From Macrostomum lignano (lineage: Eukaryota): a stretch of DNA of 64,000 nt. Of this stretch, positions 42,521-64,000 are shown piece by piece. Numbering within the stretch: the stretch's first letter is position 1; each line of letters starts with the position of its first letter. The translations under genes and the position numbers were made by a program. The stretch lies in assembly GCA_002269645.1 (NCBI GenBank), contig NIVC01000380.1, forward strand, positions 347,158 to 411,157, given 5' to 3'. The notes below the pieces were generated by a model. That model saw nothing but the letters and a program-made list of their open reading frames with translations. It was not told the DNA's origin and made no database searches.

Positions 42521-42639
42521 ATCTGCTTCATACCAACGTCTTAATCGCTAAAATCACAGTAACACAATAAATTCGGAACCCACTTTCCCTTTTTACTTGC
42601 GTTTATTAACGATGCGTACACTGTTTTCGAAGCGCAAGG

Positions 42640-42975: not shown

Positions 42976-43514
42976 CTGTCCTTCTGGCTGTTGGGGTGAA
43001 GCGCGAGAAGCGCGGGCCCGCTCACGATACGCCCGAAGGTTCTTGGCTTGGTCCAGCGCGCGCTGGATCAGGCCGGACCTCCGGGTGCTCCTGGCGGGTC
43101 TGCGATTGGGATTTCCGGTTTCAGCAGCGCGAACTGCCCTACCAGGCATAGGATCGGCCGTTTGCCTCGGCTTCTTTGCCGGAGGAGCCTAGGCCCCAGT
43201 TCCGGTTTCGGAAGCCTTGGCATTCTTGGCTTCATCAGCTTTCCGCTCCTCGCAACGGAGGATGGTCAGCTGAGTCAGACCAAGAGCCTCTTCACGGCAA
43301 TCGATTCTCGAACCAGAATCGGTTCGGATTTCCAAGAAAAAAAGCAGTATAACTATTTAACTTTGTTGAATGTTTGACTGCCTTAACAGCCTCAATTCGC
43401 ACTATTTTTCACTTTCTTCTTGGCTATTGCCATTTAATAATCACAATTTTAAAGCACTAATATCCCTCTAGTTTAGGAGACAAAAAGTTATACTTTACAA
43501 ATTGGTTCTGGTTC

Positions 43515-43890: not shown

Positions 43891-46800
43891 GCGCTGGACC
43901 AAGCCAAGAACCTTCGGGCGTATCGTGAGCGGGCCCGCGCTTCTCGCGCTTCACCCCAACAGCCAGAAGGACAGGCTGTAAGCTATCGAAGATGCTGTTC
44001 TTGATCTCGTCGTTGTCAGGTTTGCTGTAGTTGCAGCGCTTCACGAGCTGGCGTAGAGAACCCATGAACTGGTCGAAGTCCTCCGCTTCTCCTTGCATTC
44101 TGGTGCGCAGCTGATAGCTTTCAAATGTCTCGTTGGAGAGAGGCTGGCAGTAGACATCAAACTTCTTGATCAAATCCTCGTACTTTTTCACTTCCGCAGT
44201 AGGAAACGTGGCATAGACATCTTGTCCATCTGGTCCTAGAGCTGTCGCTTCTTGAACATCAGTAGCCTCAACTCAAACGCCGACAAAAAGCAGCATTCGC
44301 AGGTAGAGGACCTTGCGCTTCGAAAACAGTGTACGCATCGTTAATAAACGCAAGTAAAAAGGGAAAGTGGGTTCCGAATTTATTGTGTTACTGTGATTTT
44401 AGCGATTAAGACGTTGGTATGAAGCAGATTCGTCTCCATGGCGTGTCCTTGCGCAGGAGCGCTGTTAGCGGCTCGGCGACGTGAGACAGGTTCTTGATGT
44501 AGAACTGGAAGAACTTTGCAAAGCCAAGGAATGAGGCTAACTTTGCCGTATTGGTGGGTGCCTTGAGTCCCGATACGGACTCGGTGTGCGACTGGAGAGG
44601 TTGAATTCCCGCTGCGCTGACGCGGTGTCCAACGAACTCGATCTCCGACGCCTTGAAGGTTGCACTTCTTGAGGTTGACGGTTACTCGATGCTGCAGCAG
44701 CTTGTCCAGTACCTGAAGTACGCGACTTTCGTGCTCAGCTTCAGTACCGGCGTGAACGGCGATGTCGTCTTGATAGTGAACGACGCCTCTGATGCCTTGG
44801 AGGATCTTGCCGACGAGCTTCTGGAAGGCCGCCGGATCCGAGCTGATGCCGAACGGCATGCGTCTGAAACGGTAGAGGCCGAATTCGGTGTGGAAGCAGG
44901 TCAGATTCTTGGCGTCATCGTGCAGAGGCAGCTGTAGATACGACTGGTTGAGGTTGATTCGTGAGAAAAACTTCGAATTGTAAACCTCAAATATATTACT
45001 AATTTAAAATTTTAAAACACGTTTCCATTCTTTTGAATTAGAATAGCAGGTATGTTCAGAGCTAAAATAATTCTGGTTTAACAATTTTATGCCTTACTTT
45101 ATTTCATTCACAACTCTCGCTGCACTACTCATAGTAAAGTAGTAAAGATGTATCAATGTTGTTGCAACAACATTGCCAATTTTGACAATGGCACGACAAA
45201 AAATCTCTTGTGACAACATTGATGTCAACAATTCAGCAACACGAGGAATATCCGGAAAAAGGAATACATTCTGTCAGTCTGCAGTTTCTAGATAGCCCAA
45301 TAACAGGCTAAACTGATGGAAACACAAAAAACACAATTTATTGTGCGTACTGTGCTTCTGGGCATAAAGCTACTCCTAATGAGCATATTGGTCTCTTTAA
45401 CTTGGAAAGAAACAGTATCCCTGAAAAAGGAATACATTCTGTCAGTCTGCAGTTTCTAGAAAGCCCAATAACAGGCTAAACTGATGGAAACACAAAAAAC
45501 ACAATTTATTGTGCGTACTGTGCTTCTGGGCATAAAGCTACTCCTAATGAGCATATTGGTCTCTTTAACTTAGAAAGAAGCAATATCCCGGAGAAAGAAA
45601 TGCATTCTGTCAGTCTGCAGTTTCTAGTTAGCCCAAGCTAAACTGATGGAAACACAAAAGCACATGAAATTGCGCATTTTATATAAAATACATGAAAAAT
45701 ATTGAAATTGCAGGGTAATATTTTTATTTACAAATCAAGAAAAATTAATAATTCTTGATGTATATTTTTTGAAATAATAATTATGGTTAGGAGAAAAAAC
45801 AAGAAAGAATTTTATGAGTCAACAATGTTATAAATATACAGAATTTTTTAAATTTTTTATAATTACAATGAAATCAAATATAAAAATATTTATTGGCTAG
45901 TAATATTACATAAAATTACAAGTAATTAAATAGGCTAGTATAGTCAATATTTTTATTGCATGTTATAGTTATTATTTTATAAAAGTATACTAAGTGCCTG
46001 CCTGATATAATTGAATTTATACTTAATGGAAAAGCACTATGGAATCTTAAATAGATATTATGTTTATAATTTGACTTATTAGAAGAGAAGAAATATTAAA
46101 ATAGAGGTTTTAACAAGTTGTAAAAAGCATCAAGCCAAGAAATGCCAATTTTATTTTATTGCCTATACTGATATTAACACTTTGACTGCATGTTTCAAGA
46201 CGTAATTGAAAAATAAATCTAAAAATATAGGAAGTAAAACAGCATAAAAGGCTTCATTATTAAGTATGGCCACAAAAATACCACACGGCGTATAAATATA
46301 ATGTATTTTTTATGCGCAAGTGCGCTGTAACTGCCTGCTGCCACGTTGCGCAATAAAGACTCGCAGTTCGAAATATTTTTTAATGTTTTCGCTTTGCATT
46401 AAAATAAATAGCTTAACAGTCAACACAAAATTGAGTGCAAAAATGCTGATGAAAGTGATAAAACTTTAATTTGATAACTTTTTTAATAGGAAAATTTACT
46501 ATTTTTTGACTCGGGAAACGCACTTAATTTCGTTCACCGCGGAGTTCAGCGGCAGTCATTCAACACCGGAATTTAACAAAAAAACGTTCTCCTGCAGTTC
46601 AGGAGCAACGCGCAACGCTGAAATTTTATGCGCACGTCGAAATCTGCCTATATTTTGCTTTGAAATATTGCATGACAGGTTTTCAGCTCTCTGGAAGGAT
46701 TTATTGGGTTCACCGCCGGTTTCACCCCCCAAAAAATAACAAAAATCGCCCTCCTGATGTCCAGGGGCAACGCGCAGAGCCAAAAATCTAGGCGCATCTC

Positions 46801-48142
46801 TAGTTTTACTTGCGCTATCGATTATGTATATTTTTAAGCCTTAAAAATAAAGTTAAAAATCCGGTGAACCCAAGTGCCGGTGAATTCAGTAGTTAGTTTA
46901 GTAGTTACGAGCTCAGTGAATTTTCGGCTGCTTTCAAATCGACGCCGGAATTTCCGGGAATTCGAGTCGATTTAACAAAACTATGGGTGCGGTGGGAGCT
47001 CCAACAGCTGAGTACCTCCGGCTCAGGGGAGGGTAGCTGTCATCGTGGCTGCACGGTCGATTTTTTCGTCCTTCAGAATGCTAGGAGGACAGGATGGGCC
47101 GATACGGAAACTGTAGTCAAATGGTAGTAGATTTATCTAACATTACTTTAATTTTAGTGGATTGCTGTCAACACCGTGGTAATTCACGAAGCAAATCCCT
47201 GAGACTTGATTATAGCTAGAACTTAGTTTAAGAACTCTTGATTCTAGATCACTAATCCGAGGTCAGAAGTCTTGGAGAACAATTTGATTTTTTAAACAGC
47301 GCCTTAATTAAAATACGCTCGTCCAAGGGCGTTGACTACTATGGCAAAATATTTTTAAATATTAGAAAAAATGCTAAATAATTAAACGCAACTATTTGTA
47401 TGTCGAGAAGTTCTGGATTTGGGCAATTCGGACTCAGTAGTATGGACCTCGGGTCGTATTGAAATTTTAGAAAAATGTACAGTACATTCCCGTGCAGGTA
47501 TTTCCTTTCTGCGAGGCTGTTTTACATGTAAGTATTCCACTCGAGTCTGGCCAAGGCGGGGCGAGCCCAGACTCGTTTATTAGATTCTCATGAGCTTACC
47601 ACGGTTGGAAGGAGGGGTTTACCCCGGGTGGAAGGTTACACTGAACGGAAAATTAAAAAAGGAGGTTCACACTGTGCGCGTCTAAATAGATTGAAATTTG
47701 TCGGAATTGATTGGAAATTTCGCAGTATGAGCCATAGATAGGAGGACAGAAAAAGCCAATTCATAGCCAACTGTCGGAATTGATTGCAAATTGTTTGAAT
47801 TGATTGCAATTGAATGCACGTCCGGCCAAGAACTACCATAAACTGTCTGAATTAAATGAAAAGATTTTTACTTTGATTGCACGATTGCCAAAATAGAATG
47901 GAAAATGTGTAGAACGCAAAAAGCCATAATATTAGTAATAAAATAATATAATACTCTGCAAAGACACTTGTGGCAGCTCTTCTCGTATATGGTTATGTAT
48001 GCATGCAGCATTGATAGCCATTGCTCAATTCTCCTCTGCCCGAGCTAGCCCCCTGCCTGCCAGTTAGTCTGTCCTTGAACGCATTCGCTCCCTGCTATGT
48101 TTGGCCGCACAAGCCGCATTATAGCGTCTACTCTTGGCCATC

Positions 48143-48456
48143 ATGTCGTCCTACATACGGTTTGATTCTGCTGCCGCTGTCAACTCTCGGGTCCGGAGTG
48201 GCTCATCTGGTGGGAGCCAGCAGACACTGACTTCGGCGGCGGCGGCGGCGGCGGCAGCTAGGATACCAGCAGCTGGCACAAATGTTTCGCAGCCTAAAAT
48301 CCGTGTGCCGGCAACAATGACCATACAAGTGACAGCACCTCCGTCGGCAGCCTCATCTGTGACAGAGGCAACCGCTGCGGTTGACGAATGGAACGACGAC
48401 GCGGCATTGGCTGAGCTGGACTTTGCCGCCATCGACGAGCTGGAAAAATCGGCGAA
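48143..48456 (+). CDS. Host gene exon or 5' part interrupted by the Polinton; product unknown
   Basis: GC-rich ORF MSSYIRFDS...DEWNDDAALAELDFAAIDELEKSAK; runs into AGTAGTATAG at 48457 and stops at 48464-48466. Confidence 0.6.
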
Positions 48457-48723
48457 AGTAGTATAGAAAAAGACGCTTCTAGACCCAGAGCACTTTTTTA
48501 ATGACCGTTTTAAGGGTCTAGAGGGGGGACACGGGGGGTAAATAAAAAAACACATCTAAACACCCTTAACACATCTAATCACCCATAATCACCCCTGACA
48601 ATAAAAATCATTCCCAACACTTCCAAACACTCCCCAACACTCCCCTCGCGTCCCCCCTCTTAAGACCTTACAAACGGTCATTAAAATAAGGTCTGATCTA
48701 GAAGCGTCTTTTTCTATACTACT
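48457..48723. repeat. Left-terminal inverted repeat (fold-back): ~75-bp arms, first 27 nt perfect
   Basis: AGTAGTATAGAAAAAGACGCTTCTAGA at 48457 and its reverse complement ending at 48723. Confidence 0.9.
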
Positions 48724-49137
48724 ACTCTATAACCCCTTGCCCGCGCCGCAGGCGCGAAGGGTCACAAAAGAGTTTAAACTGAGTCATGGTAATAGTAACA
48801 CTCAACAAAAAATTACTCTCATAGCCACTATTGGCTAGCTTGCAAAATCTTGCCGTAGCAGGAATTGAACGCCCACTCAGCCATCCAACTCTATAAAAAC
48901 CACAGCCATCAACCCAGTTCTAGCTCATCTCTCAGGAAGAAGAAGACAGGCTCCGCGCGTCACAAGTAAAATGGGGTGCCCACCATCAATGAATAAGTTT
49001 TTAACAAATCGTCCAGAAAAATTCTGGACGTCCAGAAAAAAATGACTCAATGCAGTATATACACCATCTTGGGTTGAAAAATATTCTTTTGTGTGTTCTC
49101 GTATTCTTTTTTTCTGTTACTAAAAATAGAACAAAAA

Positions 49138-49536
49138 ATGACACACGTTACACATGTGCAAAATATAAATGAGTATCAGGTAGGAGATCCAATTGAATAC
49201 CGAGGTGAGGGACTTTTTGATTTGGTTGGAACAGCAGCAAATTTTGTTAAAGACAATATGGGGCTTATAGGGCAAGCTGGCTCTGCAGCAGGCTCTATAA
49301 CAAATGCTGTAAAAGGAGGAATTGAAGCAGCTAGAGCGGCAGAAGAACTAAAGAAATTGAGAGATTTTAACGACACCCTCTCACAAATAAATGCAATAAA
49401 AGATTTAAAGCTGGCACAAGCCGCACAACCAACAGAAACCCCCACGAAAACCACGCCAATAAGTAATAAAGATATTCAGGATTTTAATAAAATGTTAAAT
49501 ACTATTAAAGGTGGAAAAGGATTAAAGAAATTTTAA
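49138..49536 (+). CDS. Putative virion core/minor structural protein with GxGL motifs
   Basis: RGEGLFD and KGGKGLKKF; AAAAAATG start context. Confidence 0.6.
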   Translation: MTHVTHVQNINEYQVGDPIEYRGEGLFDLVGTAANFVKDNMGLIGQAGSAAGSITNAVKGGIEAARAAEELKKLRDFNDTLSQINAIKDLKLAQAAQPTETPTKTTPISNKDIQDFNKMLNTIKGGKGLKKF

Positions 49537-49546
49537 CAATATAAAA

Positions 49547-50542
49547 ATGGACTCAGTTAATGATGATGAAAACCGGTTATATTTTATAGGAGAAATTGTA
49601 GATACCTTAAATCTTGATGATAATAAGCAAACCCACACAATGTTAAAAAGATTGGATCGATTAGGTAAAAAGTTTGACTACGACATCGATACATTTAAAC
49701 TCGCAGCAAAATATGCACAAGAAGGAAGGCCAATATCCTTTAAGAATCGCGGCAGAAATTATAGGTTGACAGACTCCGATGTGAAATTTTTAATGGAGAC
49801 TCACACTAAAAAGGACGGCGGATTACTACCCATTCTACCGCTTCTTTTAGGACTTGGCGCAGCTGGAGCAGTCGGTTTAGCCGGAAAAAGAATTCATGAT
49901 AATGTAAAACAGCTAGGAGAGTTAAGAGCGAAACAGGGGGGAATCTTGCCCCTTGCAGCTTTGCTCCCAATAATTTTTGCAGGAATTGGAGCAGCTGGAG
50001 GAGTTGCTGGCGGAGCAGCTGGAATTGCAAAAGCAGTAAATGACAAAAAAGCTGCGGACGAAAAAGCTAAAAGAGAGGCCGAATTTCAAAGACAGCAAAT
50101 AACGCAGGACGCACAATTCAAACAGAAACTTATTGATACCATTAATAGTAGTTCAGCAACAGCAGAGCAAAAAAGAAATGCAGAAGCTAGGTTAGCAGCC
50201 GGAAAAGGTTTACTCTTGCAAGGAACAAATCACGGGAATGGTTTGGTACTAAAAGGAACAACCCAAGGAAGTGGAGTTGTCGCAGATAAACTACATGAAT
50301 TTGGCCAAACTTTAGAAAAAACGGGTGAGAAAGCTAAAGGATTTTTTGACAATATTGGATCCAATTTTAGGCCAGCAGTTCAGAAGATTTTTACTAAGTT
50401 AGGAAAAGATTTTAACATCATTGAAAAACACGACGGAAGCGGATTATATCTCGAAATGCGACCAAAAGCAGGTTCAGGAATTTTCTTAAATTCAAATGTT
50501 ATGGGCAATGGATTGCTATTACCAAAAGCAGATCTCGAATAG
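49547..50542 (+). CDS. Adenovirus pX-like core protein precursor, 331 aa
   Basis: Two GG-[LI]LP-hydrophobic segments (GGLLPILPLLLGLGAAG, GGILPLAALLPIIFAGIGAAG) resembling adenoviral pX; six GxG-[LVI] motifs in the C-terminal part. Confidence 0.7.
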   Translation: MDSVNDDENRLYFIGEIVDTLNLDDNKQTHTMLKRLDRLGKKFDYDIDTFKLAAKYAQEGRPISFKNRGRNYRLTDSDVKFLMETHTKKDGGLLPILPLLLGLGAAGAVGLAGKRIHDNVKQLGELRAKQGGILPLAALLPIIFAGIGAAGGVAGGAAGIAKAVNDKKAADEKAKREAEFQRQQITQDAQFKQKLIDTINSSSATAEQKRNAEARLAAGKGLLLQGTNHGNGLVLKGTTQGSGVVADKLHEFGQTLEKTGEKAKGFFDNIGSNFRPAVQKIFTKLGKDFNIIEKHDGSGLYLEMRPKAGSGIFLNSNVMGNGLLLPKADLE

Positions 50543-50625
50543 ACTCCTGGGGGGTGGGTCAAGACACCAAAAACGCAAATTAAAAAATCAATAATTCAAA
50601 CATTATATAAATTTTATTCTATAAA

Positions 50626-53600
50626 ATGGAAGCAATTTTAGCTCAAATCGACAACCCTGAACTTAGAGCACAATTAATAGCTCAAATCGATGCACAACGA
50701 ATTGCCGATAGGGCTGAAATAGAAGCAAGAATTAGGGCAGAAAATGAGATACGTTTAGAAAGACAATTAAATGATATTAATAACCCCCAACCACAAGGAC
50801 AAAATGGAGCTGAAGTAATATATATAGATATAGATATAAATACAAATTATAAAGAATATTTTAAACAAATGAAAGATAAATTAAAGACTATATTAAACAA
50901 TTATACTATAAGGCCAAATAACAAACGACAGCCAATTAAGTATAAAATAGAAGTTGAAACAGAATTTAAAAAACCAAATATTCTTAATGCAAATTCAGAA
51001 ATTGAAGTAATAAATAACTTTTCACAAGAATCATATAAAACATTATTATCAATGGGAAATTACAACAATCAATTCGATCAAATAGAAGCTGAGTTTGATG
51101 AATGGATAGATAAGATGACAGAAAACGGATCTGGGTTTATATTTGTATCTTGTAATTCAGCAATAGTAAAGATTGCACCTATAGAAATTCTTAAAGGACG
51201 ATCACATATGAAGCTCAAATTTAAATCACCTATGATTATAAATCCAGACAATAAAGATAATAAATGTTTATTATGGTGTTTATTAATTCATAAATATCAC
51301 AATCAAGTAGAATCACACATTAATAAAATATATAATTATAGACAATATGAGGATGAAATAATAATGAAAAACATATCATACCCAGTAGCAATAGATGATA
51401 TATATAAGATTGAAAAAATGAATGGTTTAAATATTAATGTTTTTACAATTGAAGAACCAGAAGATCTAGAAGAAATTCAGCAGGTCGATCCAGAATGGTA
51501 TAAGAAAAGGTGTTATCTTGTTAAGCCAGCAACTGATATAACAGCACCAGATCAAATCGATCTTTTGTACATGCAGCGCGAAAATGAAACACATTATATA
51601 TACATAAAAGATATTAGTTCTTTTTTAAGAGAAAATAGAAATAGATATCCACTATGTAGAAATTGTTTTACATTTAAAAAGGATGAAACAGCTCTTAAAA
51701 ACCACCAACGATTTTGTTTAGATCACAAATTTACTAATGCTATAATGCCAGCATCTTCAGATGCAACCCTAAAGTTCCAACAACATTATATGGCAGTTAA
51801 AAAACCAATAGTAATATATGCTGATTTTGAAGCAACAAATGTTCCCTTAAAAGAATCACAGACGGCATCTGATGACGGTCATGCAAAGCATGCGACCCTA
51901 CGGGACGGTGAATGCACAAAAAAATTAGCACAACAGTTTCCTAATAGTTATTGTTATATGTACACTCCGTAGCTGATCATATATTTAAATCAAGGATGAT
52001 TACTTACCACGGTAATGATGCAGCTAAGCACATGGCAGAATCATTAGTAAATGTATTTGAATATATTCAAAATCAATATGATAAATTATCAAAAAATATT
52101 AATATGACAAATAAGGATAGAGACAATTATAAAAATGCAACAAATTGTTTTATGTGCAAAAGATATTTAAGTAAGAAAAATAAGATACGAGAACATTGTC
52201 ATCTAACGGAAATATCGAGGGGCAGCATGTAGATCATGTAATGCAAAAGAAGGAAAAGGATGTAAGGAAATACCAGTATTTTTTCATAATGGTTCCGGAT
52301 ATGATTTTCATTTCTTAGTTCGAGAATTGCTTCATTTAGGAAAGGATGAATATGAAATAAATATATTACCTAAAACATCAGAAAATTACATATCAATAAC
52401 ATATGGTAAGAAATACTCCCATCTAGTTTTTCTAGATTCCTTGAGATTCTTATCAACATCTTTAGCAAATGTTGTTTCATCATTAGTTCCAAAACCATGG
52501 GATTTAGAAATAGTAAAGAAAAACTTTCCAATACTATTGAATCGTTTCAAAAAGGAAAAACTATCCGAGGAAGAACTAATGCTATTAACTCGTAAGGGCA
52601 TCTACCCATATGAATATGTAACATCTGAAGACGTATTTTTTCATACCGAATTACCCCCAATTGAAAAGTTTTATTCAACATTATCACAAACAAACATAAG
52701 TGAATCGGATTATGAACACGCTCAAAAAGTATGGAAATACTTTAATTGTAAAACATTTAAAGATTATCATAATCTATATCTTAAAGCAGATGTTCTCCTA
52801 TTAGCTGATGCATTTGAAAACTTTAGGAATCATACATATGAGAATTTTAAAATTGATCCCGCATATTGTTTCAGTGCACCGGGATTAACATGGGCTTGTG
52901 GTTTGAAACATACAGATGTTAAGATTGATTTACTAACTGATCATGATATGTTGTTAATGATTGAGAGAGGAATTCGCGGCGGATTCTCGGGTGTACTAGG
53001 AGATAGATATACTAAAGTAAATAATAAATATCTACCAAATTATAATAAAAAAGAAAAATCATCATATGTATTATATCTAGATGCAAACAATTTATACGGT
53101 GGTTGTATGAAACAAAAATTACCAATAGCTGATTTCCAATGGGAAGATGACCCCGATTATTACAAAAATATTCCCGAAGGAAGGGGCTGTATTGTAGAGG
53201 TGGATTTGCAATATACTCGGGAAGCAAAAGCAAAAACATATAAATATCCTTTAGCTCCAGAGCATTGTTCAGTTAATGAAGATGATTTATCACAAACACA
53301 AAAAGATTATCTTAAAGTAGATAATGCAAAACATCTAGCAACAAAAAAATTAATATTAAATTTACATGATAAGAAAAACTATGTAGTGCATTATAAGCTT
53401 CTACAATTTTATGAAAAGCAGGGATTAAAAGTGTCTAAAGTACATCGAACAATATCGTTTATTGAGGAAGATTGGTTAGCTAAATATATTGACTTTAATT
53501 CAAATCAGAGACAGATGTCAAAAACAAATTTTGAGAAAGATTATTGGAAATTAATGAATAATGCTTTTTATGGAAAAACGGTTGAAAATATTAGAGATAG

Positions 53601-54609
53601 AACCCAATTCCATTTAGAAAAGGATATTGATAAAGCAAAGAAATATTTCTCAAAACCTAACTTTAAAGACTTTATAAAATTTGATGATAACTTTATGGGT
53701 ATTCATATGAGAAATAAAACAACAAAATTTCTTAAACCAATATTTATTGGAATGGTTGTTTTAGATTATGCAAAGCTGGTAATGTATGAATATTATTATG
53801 ATGTTATAAATAAAACATGGCCAGATAACTATCCAATATATGCAGACACCGACAGTTTGGTATTTAAGGTTGAAACAGAGGATCGGGCAAAGCCCGCGAA
53901 CCAAAGGTTCGATGTCTATAAAGATATGGAAAAAATTAAGGATACATTGGACACATCAGACTATCCGGATAACCATCCTTTAAAATCAGATCAAAATAAA
54001 AAAGTTGTACTTAAAATGAAAGATGAATTAAATAGCAAAATCATAACCGAGTTTATAGCAATAAGATCAAAATGCTATGCATTTAAGGTTTTAGGACAGG
54101 AGGGAGAGGTAAAAAAAATAAAAGGGGTATCAAGAGCAGCAGTAAAAAAGATAACATTTGATGATTATAAAAACGTACTTTTAGATTACCTTAATACAAT
54201 TGAAAATTATCATGCTCCACAATATCGATTAAATTCAGATAAGCATCAGATGTTTGTCATCGAGACAGATAAAAAAACATTAAGTCCATTTGATGATAAA
54301 AGATATTTAGATGATAAAATTAAAACATATCCATATGGTTTAAAAGAAGAGATAAAAAATATGATAAAAGATAAAAAACAAAAAGAAGATATAATAAGTA
54401 AATATAATGAATACAAAGCGGCAATAAATAATTATTATTACGATTGTGATTGTGAATCCGAATGTGATTGTGAATATAATACATTTCTAGAATATGAAAA
54501 AGATATAGATAATTATTATTCAACATTTCCAAAAGAACTTAAAAAATTAAATAAGGAAAAAGTCTTGAATAACTGGAAGAGATTAACAGAAAAATTACTT
54601 ATCGGATAA
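50626..54609 (+). CDS. polB: Protein-primed family B DNA polymerase with N-terminal extension, zinc finger and endoVII-like insert; two frameshifts (~51960, ~52210)
   Basis: IYADFE (ExoI), HNGSGYD (ExoII), LDSLRFL, YLDANNLYG, KLMNNAFYGKT, YADTDS; CFMC...REHCHLT..YRGAAC..CN. Confidence 0.95.
53884..53911. other. GC-rich double-hairpin element (type example), in-frame insert in polB
   Basis: CGGGC-AAA-GCCCG directly followed by CGAACC-AAA-GGTTCG; relatives at 51880, 54603, 60301, 60757 and 63909. Confidence 0.85.
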
Positions 54610-54974
54610 AATCCGCGACCCTTCGGGCGGAAAAAAACTAAAGCATGTAATTGTTTAAGCATAATATCCATTTCGATTTCATATAATATTGAAGGCCAAT
54701 TTTCCTCGCAGTCGTCAGGGTAACTTAAACAATCCTTTATTTTTTTCCTAAGTTTTTTTATTTTTCTAACCAATCTATCTATTTCAATTTCAATTACTAT
54801 TTCAGCATAAACAATATCTTGTCTTAAAAAACGTTTTCTTTTATCTATCTCATATCGGATGGGAAACATATCGTCCCCATACTCATGATATTTCTGAGAT
54901 ATAATTATATTTATTTTTTTATTAATATCATTAAGTTCACGCTCTTTAGTGATAAGGATTTTTATCGTATCCAT
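54516..54974 (-). CDS. Hypothetical viral protein (coiled, charged)
   Basis: 152-aa ORF with AAAATG start; converges on the polB end. Confidence 0.55.
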   Translation of the reverse strand: MDTIKILITKERELNDINKKINIIISQKYHEYGDDMFPIRYEIDKRKRFLRQDIVYAEIVIEIEIDRLVRKIKKLRKKIKDCLSYPDDCEENWPSILYEIEMDIMLKQLHALVFFRPKGRGFYPISNFSVNLFQLFKTFSLFNFLSSFGNVE

Positions 54975-54989
54975 TTTCTTATAAAAAAT

Positions 54990-55322
54990 TTAGTCTTCGT
55001 CGTCATCCTCCCAAACAGCCGCCAATTTTACAGTCCTATCACTCTTTTTATTATTTGTTTGTTTTAGTTTAAATTGCAATCCACCCTCGTTGCAGTATTT
55101 CATAACAAACGCTTTAGGTTTATTAATAACTAAAACAGGAAAATTTTTAACATCATCTCCGCTTAGACATAAAATTTTTTGCCCATCTAATTGTAAAAAT
55201 ATTGATTGAAGCCCAATAAATTTAACCTGTCTCAAACATATAATATTATATTCTTTATTCTCCAACATATTGGGTGTGAGATAATTAATCACATTAGAAT
55301 CGGTTTTGAACCAGCTCTCCAT
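54990..55322 (-). CDS. Hypothetical viral protein, 110 aa, acidic tail
   Basis: TTAAAAATG start; tight gene packing. Confidence 0.6.
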   Translation of the reverse strand: MESWFKTDSNVINYLTPNMLENKEYNIICLRQVKFIGLQSIFLQLDGQKILCLSGDDVKNFPVLVINKPKAFVMKYCNEGGLQFKLKQTNNKKSDRTVKLAAVWEDDDED

Positions 55323-55348
55323 TTTTAATCTAAAAAAATAACAAAAAA

Positions 55349-55861
55349 ATGAAAGACATTTATGTTTGTAATAAATGTAATGTGACTATGCACAGAGGGC
55401 AAACAGCAAACGGAGATATATATCATATGTGTTATTCATGTTCTAAAATATATCAATTTGAAAAAACAAAAAAGATTGAAAACTCATATTACTATTTTAA
55501 AAATACAATTTTAAGAAATCTTACAAGAGACATTTCTGATCCAATTTTAATTCCCGGAAATAATGTTTATTTATATAATAACTTTTTCCATTTAAATAAA
55601 GGAAAGGGATTAAGTTCGAAAGACTCCGAAAGGATTTTAATTTTAGTTGGATATTATTTCAATTTTCTTATTCGAGAGAATACAAAGTTTATAAGGATAG
55701 GTAACATACCTAACGAAATGTTATTGAAAAAGTCATTGGAATTTTTATGTATTGATAAAAAATTTAAACCTAGAATCAGAAGAGAGTTACCACTTTGGGA
55801 AGAATATATAACATATGCATTAGAAAAACTAAACAACCTGAAGTTCTACAGTACTTCCTGA
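55349..55861 (+). CDS. Hypothetical protein with N-terminal zinc ribbon (CNKC...CYSC)
   Basis: ORF track; AAAAAATG start. Confidence 0.65.
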   Translation: MKDIYVCNKCNVTMHRGQTANGDIYHMCYSCSKIYQFEKTKKIENSYYYFKNTILRNLTRDISDPILIPGNNVYLYNNFFHLNKGKGLSSKDSERILILVGYYFNFLIRENTKFIRIGNIPNEMLLKKSLEFLCIDKKFKPRIRRELPLWEEYITYALEKLNNLKFYSTS

Positions 55862-56484
55862 CCGCGGGCTTTGTGCCCCAGTAGCAATAGTTTCAGGTTC
55901 GTAAATGCCTAATGTTTCTATAGGTGGAGCTTTGGGTTTATCGAGTCTCAACTCTTTTAATTCCATATCGGTAAAAGTTTCAACATCTAAAATTCTATTT
56001 CTATCTTTTAAATATTTTTCATATAATTCAACCGCGGTTGATAATTCATGAATCGTTATCTCTCCGTCATCCAATATTTTTTGCACATATAAATATAATT
56101 GATTTTTATATTGCTTGCAACATCTCTTAAAGATTTATATTTTTCCTTTCTTTTTTTAAGATATAATTTAATTGCTAAAAGTATTGATAAGTTCCTGATC
56201 AATTCAAAACCTGATATTGAGCCAATTGAAATACCTAAAAATAATTGAGATAAATTAAGAGTTGGAATAGATTGTAAAATACCTAAAACGATTACACATA
56301 ACATTGATAAGCTTCCAAATCCAATATTGAAAAAGTCCATATTTCTTATATGGTTTGAAACTCTTCTTACTTTTTTAGCATATAAATCATAATCATAGTT
56401 AATACGATCAACATTACTTAACATCTGACCTTTACGTTGGTTGAACCGGTCGCGTTCCCATTTATCTGCTTCAGATACCGACAT
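55829..56484 (-). CDS. Two-transmembrane viral protein, one frameshift near 56085
   Basis: Two hydrophobic helices, then KKRKEKY...KILDDGEITIHE; resembles a small ORF I recall as common in Mavericks. Confidence 0.6.
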
Positions 56485-56797
56485 TCTCGTCTATTTTTAA
56501 TAGCACCAAAATGAATTCCCCACGCTCTTTGGGGATTTGCCCGGAGCTTAATAGGTATTGTATTGGAGTTATTCTTTCTTTTTTCTCCCATTTAAATCCT
56601 ATTTTCCAAAACTCTTGAAGTATAATATGATTTTTTAATAACTTAATTAATTCTTGAAGCTTCTTATTATCCTGAACATTTACAGTACTAAATAAAAATT
56701 TGGTATGAGATTTGAATGTTTTTATATTTGATTCTTGTTTAGGAATAGGAATATAGACATTATTTTGCCGAATCGATGGAGTTCTACTAAAAGCCAT
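56471..56797 (-). CDS. Hypothetical viral protein, ~108 aa (MAFSRTPSIRQ...)
   Basis: TATAAAATG start at 56797. Confidence 0.55.
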   Translation of the reverse strand: MAFSRTPSIRQNNVYIPIPKQESNIKTFKSHTKFLFSTVNVQDNKKLQELIKLLKNHIILQEFWKIGFKWEKKERITPIQYLLSSGQIPKERGEFILVLLKIDENVGI

Positions 56798-56813
56798 TTT
56801 ATATAGAAATATT

Positions 56814-58859
56814 TTATATTTGAGTAGGAGGTTTTTCCAAATAACCAGTAGATGGAAAAACATAACCAAAAGATGTGCTACCACAAACGGCTGCGCCACG
56901 AATAAAATGTGCAGCATCCGATCCTCCAGTTCGAGCACCAAAACCCATAAGAGTTCCACTTTTATCCAAAGTTCCCCAAGTTCCACTATCATATGTGAAA
57001 ACGTTCTGCCCCAATGAGGGTATAAGAATCACCAGCAACATTGTATGTATGAATTCTATACCAAACCCTTTGATTTAAAATATTAATTTCAAACAGATGC
57101 CAATCACCGTTATCAATATTTGCATAGGCTACAGTTTGATCCGCGTCAGTATTAACATCCGCGCGGCTTGATCCGTCTGATTTTTTTGAACTCCAAAGTA
57201 GGCCAAATTTATCATGCCACTCACTAGCAAAAACTATCAATCCGGCGTCGGTTGATAATCCAGATCCAAATTCCGATGTTGGACGTTGGTGACAGTATGC
57301 ATAAAACCAAACCGCATCTGCACCATCTCCTGTAGCATTAGCAACTCGGAAAAAGAAAGACGCAGATATATTTTGAAAATGTGTGAAATTGAATTGTAAA
57401 GCACCACTTACTCCAGAAGTTTCACGAGTAATTCTAGCGCCGTTTTGATAATCGATATAAGAAGCGTCACCAATTAAAGAACCGACTGGATATATATCTC
57501 CGGCGGTTGTTGGATTTTGATATCCAGACCAATTACAAATTACTGGTTCGAACAAGGCCGCATCAATAGCAGGTATTCCATCCAATTTATTTTTATCGCT
57601 TCCAGACATTCTACCATTTGATGTTGGAGTAGCTAGCTGATCTACGTACGCTCGCGGAACTGCAGAAAGTATTTGAGTTGGCCAATTAAGATCTTGAATT
57701 TCAACACGGTGTTCAAATAATTGTATTTGACGAACCTCGATAGGTTGTGTACCGGTACCACCAGTTGGGAAGAATACGCTATAATATTTCCAAAAATTAG
57801 TCGTTAAATTAGATAGAGCAAATGATGTTGCTTGAACTGGTGATCCCGACGTAGTTAATGTCGTCCATGAATCGGTAGCAACATTTTTTGCGCGAACCGA
57901 CCACCCGAGGGTATCTCAATTGTTTCACTGCCTGTAATTCTTAATTCAAATATTCTTCTATTATAACCTAAAAATTCAAATTGAATTTCCATATTGGTTG
58001 TGGTTCCGGTATTTGGTGACCATTGTGTCGCAAGGCTTCCATCTCCAACTCGAAAAGCTGTGTTGCCATTTTCAGATGCTGTAAGAACAACATCAGGATT
58101 TGAAGTATTTGATGTAAGCGGCGTGGTAAAAATATCGGCGTCGGTTGCATTAGCTCGCTCGTTTACTTGGCCTAGAGTTATCGAGTCTGCGTTATCTGTT
58201 CCAAATAATAAATTTGTTAATTTAAAATTATTCATATTAATATTACCACTACGAGTGGCAACTTGATTATCGACATAGTTCTTATCAACCACTGAATCAC
58301 TAGTTGTAATTGAAACATTTATAATTCGGTTGTTGCTCATATCTAGGTTTCCGGTTGCGGTGGTTTGAACATAACGTGAATCAGAATCAGTTCGAGAATA
58401 AGAATCAGTTACATCTCTTTTTAAATTTAATCCATTATCAACTTCGGTTTTGGTATAAGAATCGGCTACGTTCCGTTTCAAATTTAATGAATTATCAACT
58501 TCGGTTTTGTTATAAGAATCAGTTATATCTCTTTTTAAATTTAATGAATTATCAACCTCTGTTTTGGTATAAGAATCGGCTGTATTGCGTTTTAAATTTA
58601 ATGAATTATCAACTTCGGTTTTGGTATAGGAATCGGCTACGTTCCGTTTCAGATTTAGTGAATCATCTATTTGAGTTTTGGTATAGGAATCTGCAACATT
58701 TCTTTTTAAATTTAATTTATTATCAATTTCAGTTTTTTTATAACCTTCATCCTCATTAATATATCGATTATCTCCAAATGTAACACTTATTCCACCAGAT
58801 GTGCCACCACCACCACTACTTGTTGTTCCGTTCCATGAGGGTGTTCCAGAAAATAACAT
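56814..58859 (-). CDS. Fibre-like protein: 19-aa repeats, stalk motifs, F5/8C (discoidin)-like domain, L-type-lectin-like tip; frameshifts ~57920 and ~57050
   Basis: 6x YTKTEVDNSLNLKRNVADS; GNINMNNFKLTNL...DSITLGQV; NGRMSGSDKNKLDGI; GADAVWF...GFGARTGG...HFI. Confidence 0.75.
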
Positions 58860-58908
58860 TTTTTACTGTCTATTTTATAGAGTCTAAATCGCCCTAAAGT
58901 CTTCGGGT

Positions 58909-59307
58909 TTACACGAGCTTCATTCGAAAGTCGATATAAAAATACAACGCAGCCTGCCCGCAATAACTTTTATCAAAGGTTTGAAATTGTTCGTGATGAT
59001 CTCCACATAAACGATTTTTAGTATGATTAAATTTGTCTTTTATTTCCTGTAACGGAGGAAGCGCGTATGAATCAAAAAAATAAACAAGTTTAGGTTTGGA
59101 ATAAACTGCCGACCAATGAACACCATTTTCTTTTGTTGTTTCAATATTAACAATGAAAGATCCATATTGTGGTAAGTCTTTGATCTCATCTCGCATAACA
59201 CATCTGAATGGTTTTATTTTTAACTGCCTCGCCCAATTTGTTAATTCGATATTGCTTGTTGTGTCCGTTCCATATCTTTGTTTAAAATCATCCCACGTCA
59301 TGGTCAT
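58909..59307 (-). CDS. Adenain-like maturation cysteine protease
   Basis: TTSNIEL, GVHW (His), FFDSY (Asp), QFQ....YCG (Gln, Cys). Confidence 0.9.
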   Translation of the reverse strand: MTMTWDDFKQRYGTDTTSNIELTNWARQLKIKPFRCVMRDEIKDLPQYGSFIVNIETTKENGVHWSAVYSKPKLVYFFDSYALPPLQEIKDKFNHTKNRLCGDHHEQFQTFDKSYCGQAALYFYIDFRMKLV

Positions 59308-59499
59308 TTTATGTTCTGAAAAACTCTTGGTTTTAGTTAGTTTCGTAGGTGTGGGTTTTAACAATTCCTTTCTTATTTTATCAGCTTGTAACTGCTTAAT
59401 TTTGCTAGTTCTAGTTCGTAATTATCTTCAGCTTTTTTAACTTTTTCTGATTGTTTTTTTATTAAATTATTATTATTATTATTACCCATTTTTACTATA

Positions 59500-60285
59500 G
59501 GATTAACCTGTTTTATACGTAAAATTATTGTTATTGACTGCCCACCAAAACTTATTAATCTATCGCTTTCATCTACAATCCTAATATAAATTGATTGAAC
59601 ATATATTGATTTAATGGGTAATATATTGGGGTTTGGGTGAACAATCATTTTCTCTCCAATTGGAACAGCAAGAAATGGGATTGAATAAATAATTCCACGT
59701 TGAACCAAAACTCCATTATTATCTGTTATATAACCGCCGTTTGATATGTCGGTTGTTATATTAATTGTATTGACTCCCCCTCAATGTTTCCCACGTATCA
59801 CCGGTGCTTGATGTGGTAACTATTCGGGAATTAAATCCAAGTATGGTTCTGAGTGAATTTGCAATTGTGAAATCAACCTGATATCCGGATCCTAGTGATA
59901 GTGTGAATCTGCCAGACGGTAAATCAACACCTATAACAATTGCTCCTGCTACCCAATCACCATTAGTTGTTGTTAATTCTCCTTCTATATAAGCATTCAA
60001 ATCAGTATAGCTATACGCTCCTGGGTTAACGCTAAATGTTGTCCAATTGGCTCCGGAATCTTTAGAATATCTAAATTGATTATTTGTTGCATTAATTAAT
60101 TGAGGCATGTTGAAAACCGAAAATAGAATTAAACCTATTTGATAACTTAGGCTTTGATCAAGTTGTAATGGATCGCGCAATTGAATCCGTTGCTCGCTGG
60201 TTGTCATTATAAACTGTAATGTTGTACTAAATTTTGAATTAGTTCGATCTACCAATTGTTTTATAGTATTTAAATTTGTAGTCAT
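59500..60285 (-). CDS. Minor capsid protein (penton, single jelly roll); frameshift near 59785
   Basis: INATNNQFRY, PGAYSYTDLN, LRTILGF, VNTINITTDI, IRIVDESDRLISFGGQSITIILRIKQV. Confidence 0.85.
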
Positions 60286-60334
60286 TTTTTAGTGGGAAAT
60301 CGAACTTTGTTCGCGGACTCCGTCGATCGTGCTA

Positions 60335-61130
60335 TGTCTCTTCTTCCTCATTATCTTCTTTTATCAATTTGTTAAAATTCTATGTTTCCTTTTTCTAACC
60401 TCGGATTGATATAAATATGTTTGTATTGGCTATCATCCCAAATTTTTTTACACATACTTTTAAATGGTTTTGCATCCAATCCGGGATTAAATCTAGCGTG
60501 TATATTTTGTAAATCATAATTATCTAAATCAAACATTACACAACAGCTAGCATTCTTTTTTATAATCGATTCTAATTCTCTAAAGGATTGAGTAAGATAA
60601 AAAGCTCCAATTCCATCTCCTCTACCACTAACAAAAATTTCCTTTTGTAATTCTTGATCACCGTCATTAATACAATCAAAAATAATTAGTGTTTTATCAT
60701 GTTTTGGAATTTGATCATAGGCTAATCGGGTTGATACTCTAACAGTTGGGGGCGATCGGACGAAGTCCGCGACCCTTCGGGCGATTCGGTGATGTTTTCT
60801 GGCTGTTGTGCCATTGTTTTACATAAATCCTCAATGTCTGCTAGATTAAATCGCGGTTCGTCATCATCCTCATATTGCTCATATGCTCTTAACATTCTAA
60901 ACAAGACATCTTTTTTAATTTGTTTTTTAATCCATGTTTAAGAAATTCATAATATTTTATTCTAGGTTTATTAGTATAAATTATTAAATTATTATAGTCT
61001 AACATTCCATCTGTTGTTAATAATCGTAAACAAAGTGTGTTTTTCCTTTACCTGATCCTCCGATTACTAAACAAAGAAAGGATCATTTGGAAATATTTTA
61101 TTGTGTTTTGCTTTACCATTTTTAAAGAAA
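60335..61130 (-). CDS. A32/FtsK-like packaging ATPase, multiply frameshifted
   Basis: Walker A IGGSGKGKT (~61040-61070); Walker B TLIIFD; SGRG...FYLTQSF. Confidence 0.85.
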
Positions 61131-61214
61131 TAATTTAAATAGGCGCGACGGTCGGAGACCTGCACTCATTTTACAGGCGCGTCGAACAATCGTGCCATCA
61201 GCTTTAGCAATTGA

Positions 61215-62632
61215 CATATATTCCTCTAGAAACAATACGTGGCGTCATGCCTGATTACCGTTTTATTAATCTCTAACATATAATTAAGTCCAATATTGGC
61301 TACGTTTTCTTTCTGTGCGTTAGATCATAAACAACCACTGGATGAATGTTTAGAAACTCTGTGGGTGTGTACTGAGGGACGCATACGCTTCATTTTTAGC
61401 ATAATCTTGATAATATTTTATAAAATCATTAACATTATTATTTGCTATATTTAAATTTAGGGGTCTTTAACCGGATAATATTGATCATCACCTGCAGGCG
61501 GATATTCTGAACATTAAACTCGTTAATAGCTGCAGCCGCATTGTCTGTTGCGGTGGCTGCTTGTTCTGCTATGGCACCCGGATTGAAGCCAATATAAATC
61601 CCCATTTGCTCTTTTACTCCTTCTATTTGTTATCTTAAACCAAACAAAAATATATCTCACCCGACGTTTTGATGTCAGTATTTGCCACTGGAATGAATCC
61701 TGGTTATTATTAATGGTTCGCATAAAATGTCGACGATTCAAATAAAATATTTCCTGATCATGCGTTAACTGATTATCGATGTGTTTTAAAAGTGGGGCTG
61801 TTACCTCAATAGTTGGTACGACTAATTGAATTGAATCTATACGAACTGCTATATCGGTTGAAATTGAGGTTCCATAAAGTATCCTAGGCTGATATCCACC
61901 AGATATTTGCAACTGTATCCCAAATTTTAATCCTTTCCATACCCGATTTGGTGAAAGAACCCAAATAGTGGAAAGATTGAAAAGTCCTGCTCATATGCTG
62001 TTGCTGTGGTTAAAACCGCGACTGGGAATTTATTCTGACGATCTATAAAACCAGTATTAATATCTTTTGTATTAGTCATAGTGGTTACAACTGGAACTAT
62101 GTTTGTATTAAGGTAAACAATTAGCGCTGCAGTATCTGCACCGGCTGCGTTTTGTACATTAGGGAAAACTACTGCTTGACCGTTACCTTTATCCGGCATC
62201 CACCCAACATTATCACCAACTTGTTTTGATAAATAAGTATAATTTAAATGTTTCAAAACTCCATTAATCTCTGCGGGGTTTGATGATGTCTCAACCTCAG
62301 CACCATTAACAGTTAGTTGAGCTTGGGAAAAACATTTATAAAACCAATCATTTTCTATTATTATTCCGGATCGATCTGCGATATCTCCGGCTGCAAGAGC
62401 AGTTCCATCATTTCTAGTATACAACCATCTAACGCGGAAAAACGCATTTTTCATATCCAATATAGTGTTGGTTGCGCCGATGTCAAAAGTTACCGTTCCA
62501 GTAGTAAAGTTATTTGAATTATCACTTGTTGGTAGGGTATAATTTAAATCTCTTGCTCTGACCTCATTAATATACTGTCGGTGCTTTTTTGAAATGAAAT
62601 TTATCACTCCACATAGTTTTTGTTTCAGCCAT
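61215..62632 (-). CDS. Major capsid protein (double jelly roll), multiply frameshifted
   Basis: FSQAQLTVNGAEVETSSNP, IDSIQLVVPTIE, FQWQILT..RVRYIFVWF, VQNIRLQV..QYYP. Confidence 0.85.
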
Positions 62633-62666
62633 TTTTTTAAGTTAAAAAAGTTTTTTATGTTAAAAA

Positions 62667-63330
62667 ATGAGTCAATTTATGGACGTTGATGGAGAGTTAG
62701 CGATTTATAAAGAGAAGCAAAGATATTCTGATTTTGTTAGAAATTTACAAAAAAGAAAGTTAGGAATACAATTAGCGGGTGAAAGATTTGCTGCTCCTTT
62801 TGTTAATCCTATTACTGGGAAAATTAGTGAACTAGAAAAAACAGATAAAGATCTTCTGGAAAAAATTGCTAAAATACTGAGCCAAAAGAGGATGAAATTT
62901 TGGATGAGCCGCCTGCTTATGATGTTGATCAAGCTCAATTGAGATTGCAGAGATTAGACGTGCAGAGCGGGGCGATCGGAACAATATCCAAGAGTACCAG
63001 CTAGTATTGCTGCGACAGATTTAGGTAATAATAATTATCGAATTGGTGGAGTTGATAAAAATCGAAATGAACTATATAGAGAATTGGGTGGAGCATATAA
63101 TATTGTTATAACCCTAGGGTAAAATTTAACCCTGATTTATATACTAGGGATGAATTAATAAGTGCTAGAATTTTTTATGATGAGTTAGGAGGAGCTGTTA
63201 AAAATACCAGCTTGTATAAAAGGATTGTTAATTCTATAAATAACAAACCAGCTGTTGGTGATGGATTTAAAACACACGAAAACTTGTTTTAGCTGCTGCG
63301 AAAGCTGCTGGACATACTGGGTTTAATTAA
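62667..63330 (+). CDS. Hypothetical viral protein, frameshifted
   Basis: Starts 34 bp from the MCP ATG, divergently; reading continues in shifted frames. Confidence 0.5.
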
Positions 63331-63353
63331 TTGTTAAATTTATTTTTTATAAA

Positions 63354-63964
63354 ATGGAAACTAATAAGATTTGTACTAAGTGTAAACAAGAAAAACCGAT
63401 GACGAAAGAATTTTATTTTGGAGAAATGATTCAAAAAAATTTAGAAATGATTGTCGATCTTGTCATAATACCTCATCTGCTATTTGGATAAAAAACAATA
63501 AAGATAAATGGAATGAATATAAAAAAATAAGTATCACACTGATGATAATTACAAACATATTGTTTTAATTAGAAATAGAATAAATTGGCGTTGAAAAATT
63601 TTAATGACAAGGACTATATCTCATATCTTGGTTGCACAAAAGAATTCTTTTTTGATTGGTTAAATTTCACAAGAAATTATTATGTATCAAAAGATTATAC
63701 TGGAAAGTTAGATATTGATCATTTCATTCCCGCTTCTTCGTTTAGTTACAAAGATGAAGATCAGATGAAAAAGTCTGAAATTGGAGAAATAAAAGATACT
63801 TAACTAGCGTAGATAATAACTATAAAAAAGTTAAACAACCAACCATTGAAGAGTTTGCAAAACAATTGGTGCTATCATGTATTTTTAAGGCTATTAAAAA
63901 TGAGCAACCGACGAAGTTCGCGTTCCTTCGGAACGCATCAATAGTGTTGAAGGAGGATTGTTAG
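63354..63964 (+). CDS. HNH-like endonuclease with zinc ribbon, giant-virus type; frameshifted
   Basis: CTKC...CRSC; YLGCTKEFFFDWL; LDIDHFIPASSF; WRNKRYL...DNYKK. Confidence 0.7.
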
Positions 63965-64000
63965 ATGTTCAAAAAGGATTAACAAGCTTACACCAATCTT

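What the first reader, a model, noticed from the sequence alone, without database searches (positions are those of the whole stretch)
53881..53913. Double hairpins are clean inserts in conserved enzymes
Removing the 30 nt between the two GAT triplets (53881, 53911) turns VETED-RAKPANQRFD-VYKDM into VETEDVYKDM, the expected pPolB context after YxDTDS. The 51874 copy is also 30 nt, between GACGGT repeats, and in frame. Removing the 29 nt between GGCGAT repeats (60751, 60780) restores the ATPase frame through to Walker B. This points to insertion with short target duplication, with in-frame inserts tolerated in loops.
Basis: partly seen in the sequence, partly recalled or inferred. Interest (0 to 1): 0.75.

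Follow-up and report, generated by a model that had tools for sequence, protein, structure and literature searches.

The report
30-base double-hairpin parasite inside Maverick virus
An integrated Maverick virus carries a 30-base double-hairpin insert that is present or absent at many sites among its copies and adds ten amino acids inside viral genes without shifting the reading frame; it is likely a tiny selfish element, predicted to be copied to new sites by the virus's own polymerase.

Summary
The window ends in an ~18-kb Maverick/Polinton provirus with at least 40 near-identical genomic copies. The insert is a 28-nt core of two abutting triloop hairpins (13+15 nt) plus a 2-nt junction, mostly AT: 30 nt in all. 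Six copies lie in the window's provirus, none in 48 kb of host DNA. Across fetched copies it occupies 27 site clusters, in both orientations, singly or in tandem, as 62 sequence variants with compensatory stem changes and shuffled hairpins. Natural empty alleles exist at all three sites named; none of 48 polymerase homologues covering the 53881 site has the insert. The 29-nt ATPase insert is peculiar to the window copy (30 nt in 28 of 37 contigs), and the 'target duplication' is partly the element's own ends. Best reading: a selfish micro-element, likely spread by polymerase template switching on folded single-stranded DNA; the enzyme is not shown. It works like mitochondrial double-hairpin elements and GC clusters, but I found no report of one in Mavericks.

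The parts
53882..53913 (+). Double-hairpin unit in pPolB: AT (53882-53883), hairpin A 13 nt (53884-53896), hairpin B 15 nt (53897-53911), AT (53912-53913); adds ten residues 12 residues after the catalytic DTD
   Evidence: (51 bits)
51878..51909 (+). Double-hairpin unit in the pPolB exonuclease region, GT at both junctions, in frame; present/absent among provirus copies
60755..60785 (+). Double-hairpin unit in the packaging-ATPase gene (gene on the - strand), between Walker A and Walker B; this copy has a small indel relative to the 30-nt family state
54600..54632 (+). Unit at the 3' end of pPolB; its first hairpin holds the stop codon; absent in some copies
60298..60328 (.). Decayed unit at the ATPase 3' end; other copies carry arrays of 1-4 units in mixed orientation here
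63906..63938 (+). Decayed unit near the end of the HNH/endonuclease-VII-like gene; 0, 1 or 2 units in other copies
48457..48763 (+). Left terminal inverted repeat (~307 bp, begins AGTAGT) of the Maverick provirus
50626..54609 (+). Protein-primed DNA polymerase B gene (in pieces in this copy), with an endonuclease VII domain near 52130-52260
   Evidence: phi29 polymerase, E 1.3e-14; PF02945, E 5.1e-09 on a natural copy
60340..61120 (-). A32-like packaging ATPase gene, approximate bounds, broken at several places in this copy
   Evidence: Pox_A32 E 0.0038, below the curated cut-off, on part of a natural copy
61523..62607 (-). Likely major capsid protein gene, in pieces in this copy
   Evidence: Atlas look-alikes 0.96-0.97 in Preplasmiviricota clusters, 10-15% of members with capsid Pfams; recognition score low
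63356..63950 (+). Stand-alone HNH/endonuclease-VII-like gene, approximate bounds, broken in this copy, replaced or missing in some copies
   Evidence: phrog_1035, E 8.6e-08 on a natural copy

Best explanation
This is a 30-nt double-hairpin insert that is present or absent at many sites of one Maverick provirus family and is likely a selfish micro-element, predicted to be copied into new sites when the virus's strand-displacing polymerase switches template onto a folded copy. Shown: a 28-nt core of two abutting triloop hairpins (5-bp and 6-bp stems) plus a 2-nt junction; at least 27 site clusters; filled and empty alleles; tandem units; both orientations; confinement to the provirus; ten-residue in-frame inserts in pPolB, ATPase and other genes. 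Inferred: on displaced single-stranded DNA the two hairpins fold and bring the two junctions together (or the unit is released as a 30-nt dumbbell with the junction as a 2-nt bulge); a nascent 3' end that finishes in T, AT or GAT pairs with that junction, copies once round the unit and returns to its own template in the same register, so the gain is always core plus two; ordinary recombination between the highly mosaic provirus genomes then spreads and removes alleles; selection keeps 30-nt units in tolerant loops and lets 26/28/32-nt units survive only at gene ends.
For: Multi-site presence/absence: 46 of 101 flank pairs have a natural empty allele; 14 filled vs 18 empty of 32 at 51874, with a filled and an empty copy identical over ~950 nt of flank; short-read contigs show both states. 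Structure kept while sequence drifts: 62 cores from 25 A and 38 B hairpins, loops flipped in place for 3 A and 5 B hairpins; 95.9% of cells paired, 8 of 11 pairs with changes on both sides, 0 of 500 shuffles as high. Junction rule: T at -1 in 44 of 46 and 36 of 44 outer flanks, A at -2 in 39 of 46 and 38 of 44, G at -3 in 20 of 46 and 19 of 44 against 17% background, i.e. targets resemble the element's own ends over up to 3 nt on either strand. Asymmetric junctions (AT on one side, the target's AA, GT or TT on the other) and one GT/GT case all fit entry and exit by microhomology. Confinement: 30 of 30, 30 of 30 and 21 of 23 sampled genome hits lie in provirus DNA; 0 model hits below E 0.98 in 48.4 kb of host DNA of the window. 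The polymerase is phi29-like; that such enzymes displace strands and re-prime on short terminal repeats is recalled knowledge.
Against: No enzyme, intermediate or new insertion was observed. The covariation count leans towards the structure because the detector required pairing. A single 13-nt hairpin plus AT would also be in frame yet was not seen as a mobile unit (not searched for systematically), which hints at a junction-specific enzyme. Copies recombine everywhere (four-gamete failures in 55-74% of SNP pairs, no clear excess across elements), so scattered presence on the tree does not prove directed homing. Empty alleles often have a dinucleotide other than AT. The frame filter is p = 0.065 as classed automatically and 0.007 only after one site is re-classed. 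Flank clusters are not fully independent sites.
Confidence: 0.55

Rival explanations
1. Same selfish element, but moved by cut-and-join at a four-way junction. A filled strand paired with an empty strand forms a perfect Holliday-like junction (left flank, hairpin A, hairpin B, right flank). A junction nuclease (the endonuclease VII domain inside pPolB, the stand-alone HNH gene, or a host type IB topoisomerase) would excise a dumbbell, insert it by one strand exchange completed by replication, convert empty alleles, and reassort A and B.
For: Two hairpins always abut with no spacer and the junction-proximal pairs are the most conserved. A and B reassort freely. pPolB carries PF02945 above its cut-off and lines up with the catalytic stretch of T4 endonuclease VII (weak, E 0.44). 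A second such nuclease gene is flanked by two element sites. One-strand exchange plus replication is the published route for CTXphi (PMC3442271, abstract).
Against: PF02945 is also in 15 of the 52 homologues listed, and none of 94 related loci has a model hit at E 1 or below, so the domain does not predict the element. No recombination excess across elements. The GT/GT junction needs an extra assumption. No recombinase gene was identified in the provirus other than the rve integrase, whose 6-bp duplication does not fit.
Confidence: 0.3
2. The hairpins are useful viral signals (transcription end, RNA processing, packaging or replication pause sites) that are kept at gene ends and only occasionally misplaced into genes.
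For: Several sites coincide with gene ends and supply stop codons. Stems are under constraint. The closest outside relative (L137) has its two double hairpins at gene ends.
Against: 19 of 27 site clusters are inside reading frames by the automatic class (18 after re-classing one), both orientations occur, and most sites have empty alleles in near-identical copies. Contigs from runs guessed to be RNA cross the 53881 unit without a gap.
Confidence: 0.1
3. The inserts arise independently by local fold-back errors, or are assembly artefacts.
For: The assembly has many 1-3-nt indels inside units; fold-back insertions of 5-34 bp are known at DNA breaks (PMC11724301, search listing only).
Against: One grammar and shared hairpins at unrelated sites; 91, 182 and 154 exact pattern hits against 0 for each control; both alleles and a compensatory variant in independent short-read contigs.
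Confidence: 0.03

Closest known systems
Double-hairpin elements (DHEs) of chytrid and fission-yeast mitochondria
   Same: Short, GC-rich, two adjacent hairpins, dispersed, thought to be mobile with no known enzyme (PMC10085805 passages).
   Different: Here in a nuclear-integrated DNA virus; near-fixed 30-nt unit; mostly inside protein-coding genes in frame (fission-yeast DHEs are intergenic or in rRNA genes, PMC10085805); a 2-nt junction, whereas Allomyces elements are reported to lack flanking duplications (PMC2800124 passage). Sequence kinship not tested.
Yeast mitochondrial GC clusters (GC42 and kin)
   Same: GC-rich palindromes in AT-rich DNA, presence/absence among strains, 2-nt (AG) target repeat, merger and shuffling of units, insertion into the var1/rps3 gene (PMC4478555, PMC4464245 passages).
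   Different: Organelle versus virus; AT junction; strict 13+15 two-hairpin grammar; in-frame inserts in several essential viral enzymes.
Rickettsia palindromic elements (RPE)
   Same: Repeated in-frame insertion into unrelated protein genes, compatible with the fold (PMC10969869 passage).
   Different: RPEs are ~150 bp and encode a conserved peptide; this unit is 30 nt and is read in different frames and strands, giving unrelated decapeptides.
MITEs in viral genomes
   Same: Non-coding, multi-copy, short target repeat, inside a virus (PMC6004678 passages).
   Different: Those are 116-422 bp with terminal inverted repeats, transposase partners and relatives in host DNA; this one is 28-30 nt, has 1-2 bp of terminal symmetry and was not found in host DNA.
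Maverick/Polinton proviruses (the carrier)
   Same: Terminal inverted repeats starting AGTAGT, 6-bp target duplication, pPolB, rve integrase, ATPase, likely capsid genes (PMC8097293 passages).
   Different: No internal mobile hairpin family turned up for Mavericks in the ten literature searches made.

Membership tests
Maverick/Polinton (carrier) | Terminal inverted repeats with (AGT)2 ends and 6-bp target duplication | tested here: met
   ~307-bp repeat at both ends; 6-bp duplication around the one copy checked, on C326; criteria from PMC8097293 passages
Maverick/Polinton (carrier) | Protein-primed PolB and retroviral-type integrase | tested here: met
   phi29 fold match E 1.3e-14; rve E 8.4e-07, just under the curated cut-off, in a copy that extends past the window
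Maverick/Polinton (carrier) | Capsid module (major and minor capsid, ATPase, protease) | tested here: inconclusive
   ATPase: Walker motifs, Pox_A32 below cut-off; capsid: Atlas look-alikes only; protease and minor capsid had no Pfam or PHROG hit and are named from motifs and gene order (recalled)
Mitochondrial DHE | Two adjacent GC-rich hairpins conserved by structure | tested here: met
Mitochondrial DHE | Dispersed and optional between close relatives | tested here: met
Mitochondrial DHE | Resides in mitochondrial DNA | tested here: not met
   inside a provirus flanked by nuclear host DNA
Mitochondrial DHE | No flanking duplication (Allomyces, as cited in PMC2800124) | tested here: not met
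   AT on both sides with a single AT in the empty allele at many sites
Mitochondrial DHE | Sequence kinship to described DHEs | not testable with these tools
   the original papers are not held; no Rfam family matches 48000-64000
MITE | Terminal inverted repeats matching an autonomous transposase partner; length above ~100 bp in viruses | tested here: not met
   28-nt core, 1-2 bp terminal symmetry; no partner identified
Rickettsia palindromic element | ~150 bp, conserved encoded peptide | tested here: not met
   30 nt; different peptides by frame and strand
Translational bypass elements (byps) | Insert breaks the frame or holds a stop and is skipped by the ribosome between matched codons (recalled) | tested here: not met
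   units inside genes are 30 nt and read through in natural copies; skipping itself cannot be tested here

The most novel reading that the evidence does not exclude
A 30-nt hyperparasite of a eukaryotic DNA virus that is a Holliday-junction mimic: it travels as a closed DNA dumbbell or four-way junction, is handled by the virus's own polymerase-endonuclease VII protein, reassorts its two arms, and is sized to stay in frame, so that it invades essential viral enzymes as a ten-residue loop. Related forms would exist in other Polinton-like viruses (L137), and the same route would explain the unexplained mobility of organellar double-hairpin elements.
Probability: 0.3. Interest if true: 0.88.

Novelty: new variant of a known kind. 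Interest (0 to 1): 0.7.

Why it matters
How ultra-short hairpin elements (mitochondrial DHEs, GC clusters) move has stayed open; the papers read here list only guesses. This case gives dozens of near-identical virus copies in one genome with filled and empty alleles at 27 or more sites, clear junction rules, and only a handful of candidate enzymes on an 18-kb genome, so the mechanism becomes directly testable. It also shows a parasite of a virus that is among the smallest mobile units proposed, is the right length to keep reading frames, and repeatedly adds ten-residue loops to a polymerase and a packaging ATPase.

Tried and rejected
Strict detectors missed decayed copies (1 and 2 hits), so a covariance model was built; its two best window hits are training sequences. 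Pattern scans of viral contigs gave 5, 1, 16 and 3 hits, none with the double-hairpin context. The model found nothing at E 1 or below in 94 related loci, 540 kb. A closing stem between the two AT junctions shows no covariation. No recombination excess across elements. A search for longer homologues of the 51874 region returned none, so that site rests on empty alleles. Pfam and PHROGs did not name pPolB, capsid or protease. No RNA holder is on record among the runs; only contigs, not raw reads, could be laid, so 29 versus 30 nt was judged from assembled copies. DNA for homologue P0009 could not be obtained, which leaves its ten-residue insert a lead. Earlier findings of the scan: none. Ribosomal bypassing was considered and dropped because in-gene units are in frame in most copies. 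The host lineage was not determined (eukaryote only). The 51874 and ATPase inserts were not modelled.

Full report
Setting. The window is G000:C380:347158-411157 in a 764-Mb eukaryote assembly of 5,269 contigs. Bases 1-48,400 are host DNA with transposon remnants and Sin1 exons; the lineage was not determined. From 48457 the DNA becomes AT-rich and is a Maverick/Polinton provirus: a ~307-bp terminal repeat recurs inverted about 18 kb away in other copies, one copy checked has a 6-bp target duplication, pPolB folds like phi29 polymerase, and an rve integrase lies beyond the window end. At least 40 copies match the pPolB stretch at 93-100% (40 of 132 candidates scored).

The observation. The three repeats named are at the stated places. 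The 53881 unit folds as two abutting hairpins (z -4.3). In an alignment with 52 homologues, 48 cover the site and none has a comparable insert (41 none, 7 two residues). The model puts the ten residues in a turn after the strand that follows the catalytic motif, with low confidence in the insert itself. The 51874 unit follows the first exonuclease motif, where an outside relative has a much longer insertion; it was not modelled.

Anatomy. The unit is hairpin A (5-bp stem, 3-nt loop), hairpin B (6-bp stem, 3-nt loop), no spacer, and a 2-nt junction. Of 281 units detected in fetched loci (overlapping loci counted more than once), 262 are 13+15; the rest are 15+15 (9), 13+13 (7), 11+13 (2), 11+15 (1) (one chance hit in host DNA, L107, was dropped first). 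There are 62 distinct 13+15 cores built from 25 A and 38 B hairpins; seven of each have three or more partners, and 3 A and 5 B hairpins occur with the loop in both directions. Pairs covary: 95.9% paired, 8 of 11 pairs changed on both sides, 0 of 500 shuffles as high, slid controls 20-33%; the detector demanded pairing, so this is biased upward. A closing stem between the junctions has no such support.

Distribution. A model built on those cores finds six places in the window's 15.6 kb of provirus (E 2.6e-11 to 0.006) and none below E 0.98 in the host part. Three exact patterns give 91, 182 and 154 genome hits against 0 for each reversed control. Sampled hits lie in provirus DNA in 30 of 30 and 30 of 30 loci (first 30 listed each time) and 21 of 23 hits in 20 stretches picked from contigs not yet tied to the provirus; of the other two, one is in a 1,050-codon frame beside provirus DNA and one is a lone hairpin. 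The remaining hits were not examined. Arrays fall into 27 site clusters (321 arrays), a lower bound because nearby positions were merged; the ATPase linker alone has four or more positions in both orientations. Tandems of up to four units, identical or mixed, are spaced by the junction. A family only 64% identical in the integrase region carries a unit at the same site near 64,200.

Filled and empty alleles. At 51874, 14 of 32 copies are filled, at two positions 3 nt apart, and 18 are empty; filled copies are scattered on a tree of the downstream 950 nt and one filled/empty pair is identical there. At 53881, 1 of 34 loci is empty, 26 have one unit, 2 have two, 5 have small indels. At the ATPase site 28 of 37 contigs have the 30-nt span and 9, the window among them, have small indels (these loci were selected by likeness to a filled copy); empty alleles occur in more divergent copies. 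Overall 46 of 101 flank pairs have an empty allele among the fetched loci. Short-read contigs confirm both states at 51874 and a compensatory variant, and cross 53881 without a gap in two runs guessed to be RNA. The window's ATPase and polymerase are broken at further places, where short-read contigs of four runs often read otherwise, which points to assembly error or decay of this copy.

Junctions. Reading towards the element, outer flanks end in T (44 of 46 on the A side, 36 of 44 on the B side), preceded by A (39, 38) and often G (20, 19; background 17%) (clusters not fully independent). Many sites show AT on both sides and a single AT when empty; others show AT on one side and the empty target's AA, GT or TT on the other; one shows GT on both; at some the common empty allele differs from AT. 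So the repeat is not a classical staggered-cut duplication; it looks like entry and exit through 1-3 nt of shared sequence.

Frame. Units inside genes are 30 nt and read through in natural copies, in different frames and strands. Units of 26, 28 or 32 nt occur at four clusters, each at a gene end where a hairpin usually supplies the stop. The contrast is p = 0.065 with the automatic classes and 0.007 when the cluster near 60,300 is classed as a gene end, as one search shows for nearly all copies. Only 2-13 of 62 cores carry a stop in any given frame.

Mechanism. Shown: structure, dispersal, polymorphism, junction rule, confinement. Inferred: confinement to the provirus suggests movement during virus replication, where a phi29-type polymerase displaces single strands (recalled). 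I favour template switching onto a folded or dumbbell donor because it explains the constant 30 nt, the microhomology on both strands, all junction types including GT/GT, tandems and loop flips with one enzyme. The main rival is strand exchange at a four-way junction: a filled strand paired with an empty one is geometrically a Holliday junction, pPolB holds an endonuclease VII domain, and a second nuclease gene lies between two element sites. But the domain is common in relatives without the element, nuclease inserts in Polinton polymerases are known and read as homing-endonuclease or intein invasions (PMC11161782 and 10.1101/2023.08.22.554363, passages), and recombination is high everywhere, not especially at elements.

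Outside this genome. Of 94 related loci (best 80 of 470 in metagenomes, all 14 in viral contigs) none matches the model. A sequence-blind detector gave 5 hits, two of them in L137, the closest relative (55% in pPolB, 24% GC): both are abutting hairpins at gene ends, one with the same 13+15 layout; 398 of 400 shuffles had none and 2 had one. Homologue P0009 has a ten-residue insert elsewhere in pPolB, DNA unseen.

Known kinds. It works like mitochondrial DHEs and yeast GC clusters, and shares in-frame invasion with Rickettsia palindromic elements, but fails membership of each (see tests). Ten full-text searches (listings and abstract starts) showed no such element in Mavericks, Polintons or their kin; subscription journals and Repbase notes are not covered. 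Passages read: PMC10085805, PMC4478555, PMC6004678, PMC11161782, PMC2800124, 10.1101/2023.08.22.554363, PMC5910586, PMC10969869, PMC7218506, PMC4464245, PMC8097293; abstract and outline only: PMC3442271. No supplements were read; DHE alignments in figures or supplements could bear on sequence kinship.

Verdict. Real, well beyond chance, and a family rather than three oddities. That it is a mobile insert is about 85% likely; the polymerase route about 55%, the junction-nuclease route about 30%. New variant of a known kind; interest 0.7.

Noticed in passing
window 61128-61200: A second, different modular hairpin insert system upstream of the ATPase: spans of 41 to 113 nt among 80 loci (77 and 110 commonest), built from nested hairpin units between short GC-rich repeats; found only at this site.
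   Followed up: partly
L137:645-680 and 4395-4425: Two abutting-hairpin pairs at gene ends in the closest metagenomic relative, one with the 13+15 layout and similar loops; not matched by the model.
   Followed up: partly
L136:4798, 5013, 5482, 7648, 8978; L202:1340: Other GC-rich short repeats or hairpins between genes of related Polinton-like contigs; L202 has a hairpin identical in stem to a B variant.
   Followed up: no
P0009: Ten extra residues rich in Pro, Gly, Trp, Ala and Arg shortly after the DTS-Y motif of a homologous pPolB; may be a similar insert in another virus.
   Followed up: no
window 63356-63950: Stand-alone endonuclease-VII-like gene that is swapped or missing in some copies and has element sites at both ends.
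   Followed up: partly
window 48457-48723: The terminal repeat holds its own inner inverted repeat (27 bp perfect, 43 bp at 77%), so each end could fold back on itself.
   Followed up: no
window 48764-49108: Stretch next to the left terminal repeat that is replaced by unrelated, shorter DNA in most copies.
   Followed up: no
window 40053-43059 and 43891-46897: A 3,007-bp perfect inverted repeat in host DNA holding reverse-transcriptase fragments and 168-bp tandem repeats.
   Followed up: no
window 53880-53893: Two runs guessed to be RNA show one hairpin-A variant at full depth here while the two other runs show a mixture; contig data only, a weak hint that few copies are transcribed.
   Followed up: no
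L254, L255, L259, L260: Other Maverick types in the genome with a different polymerase gene; L259 and L260 carry the element, the stretches L250-L257 do not.
   Followed up: partly
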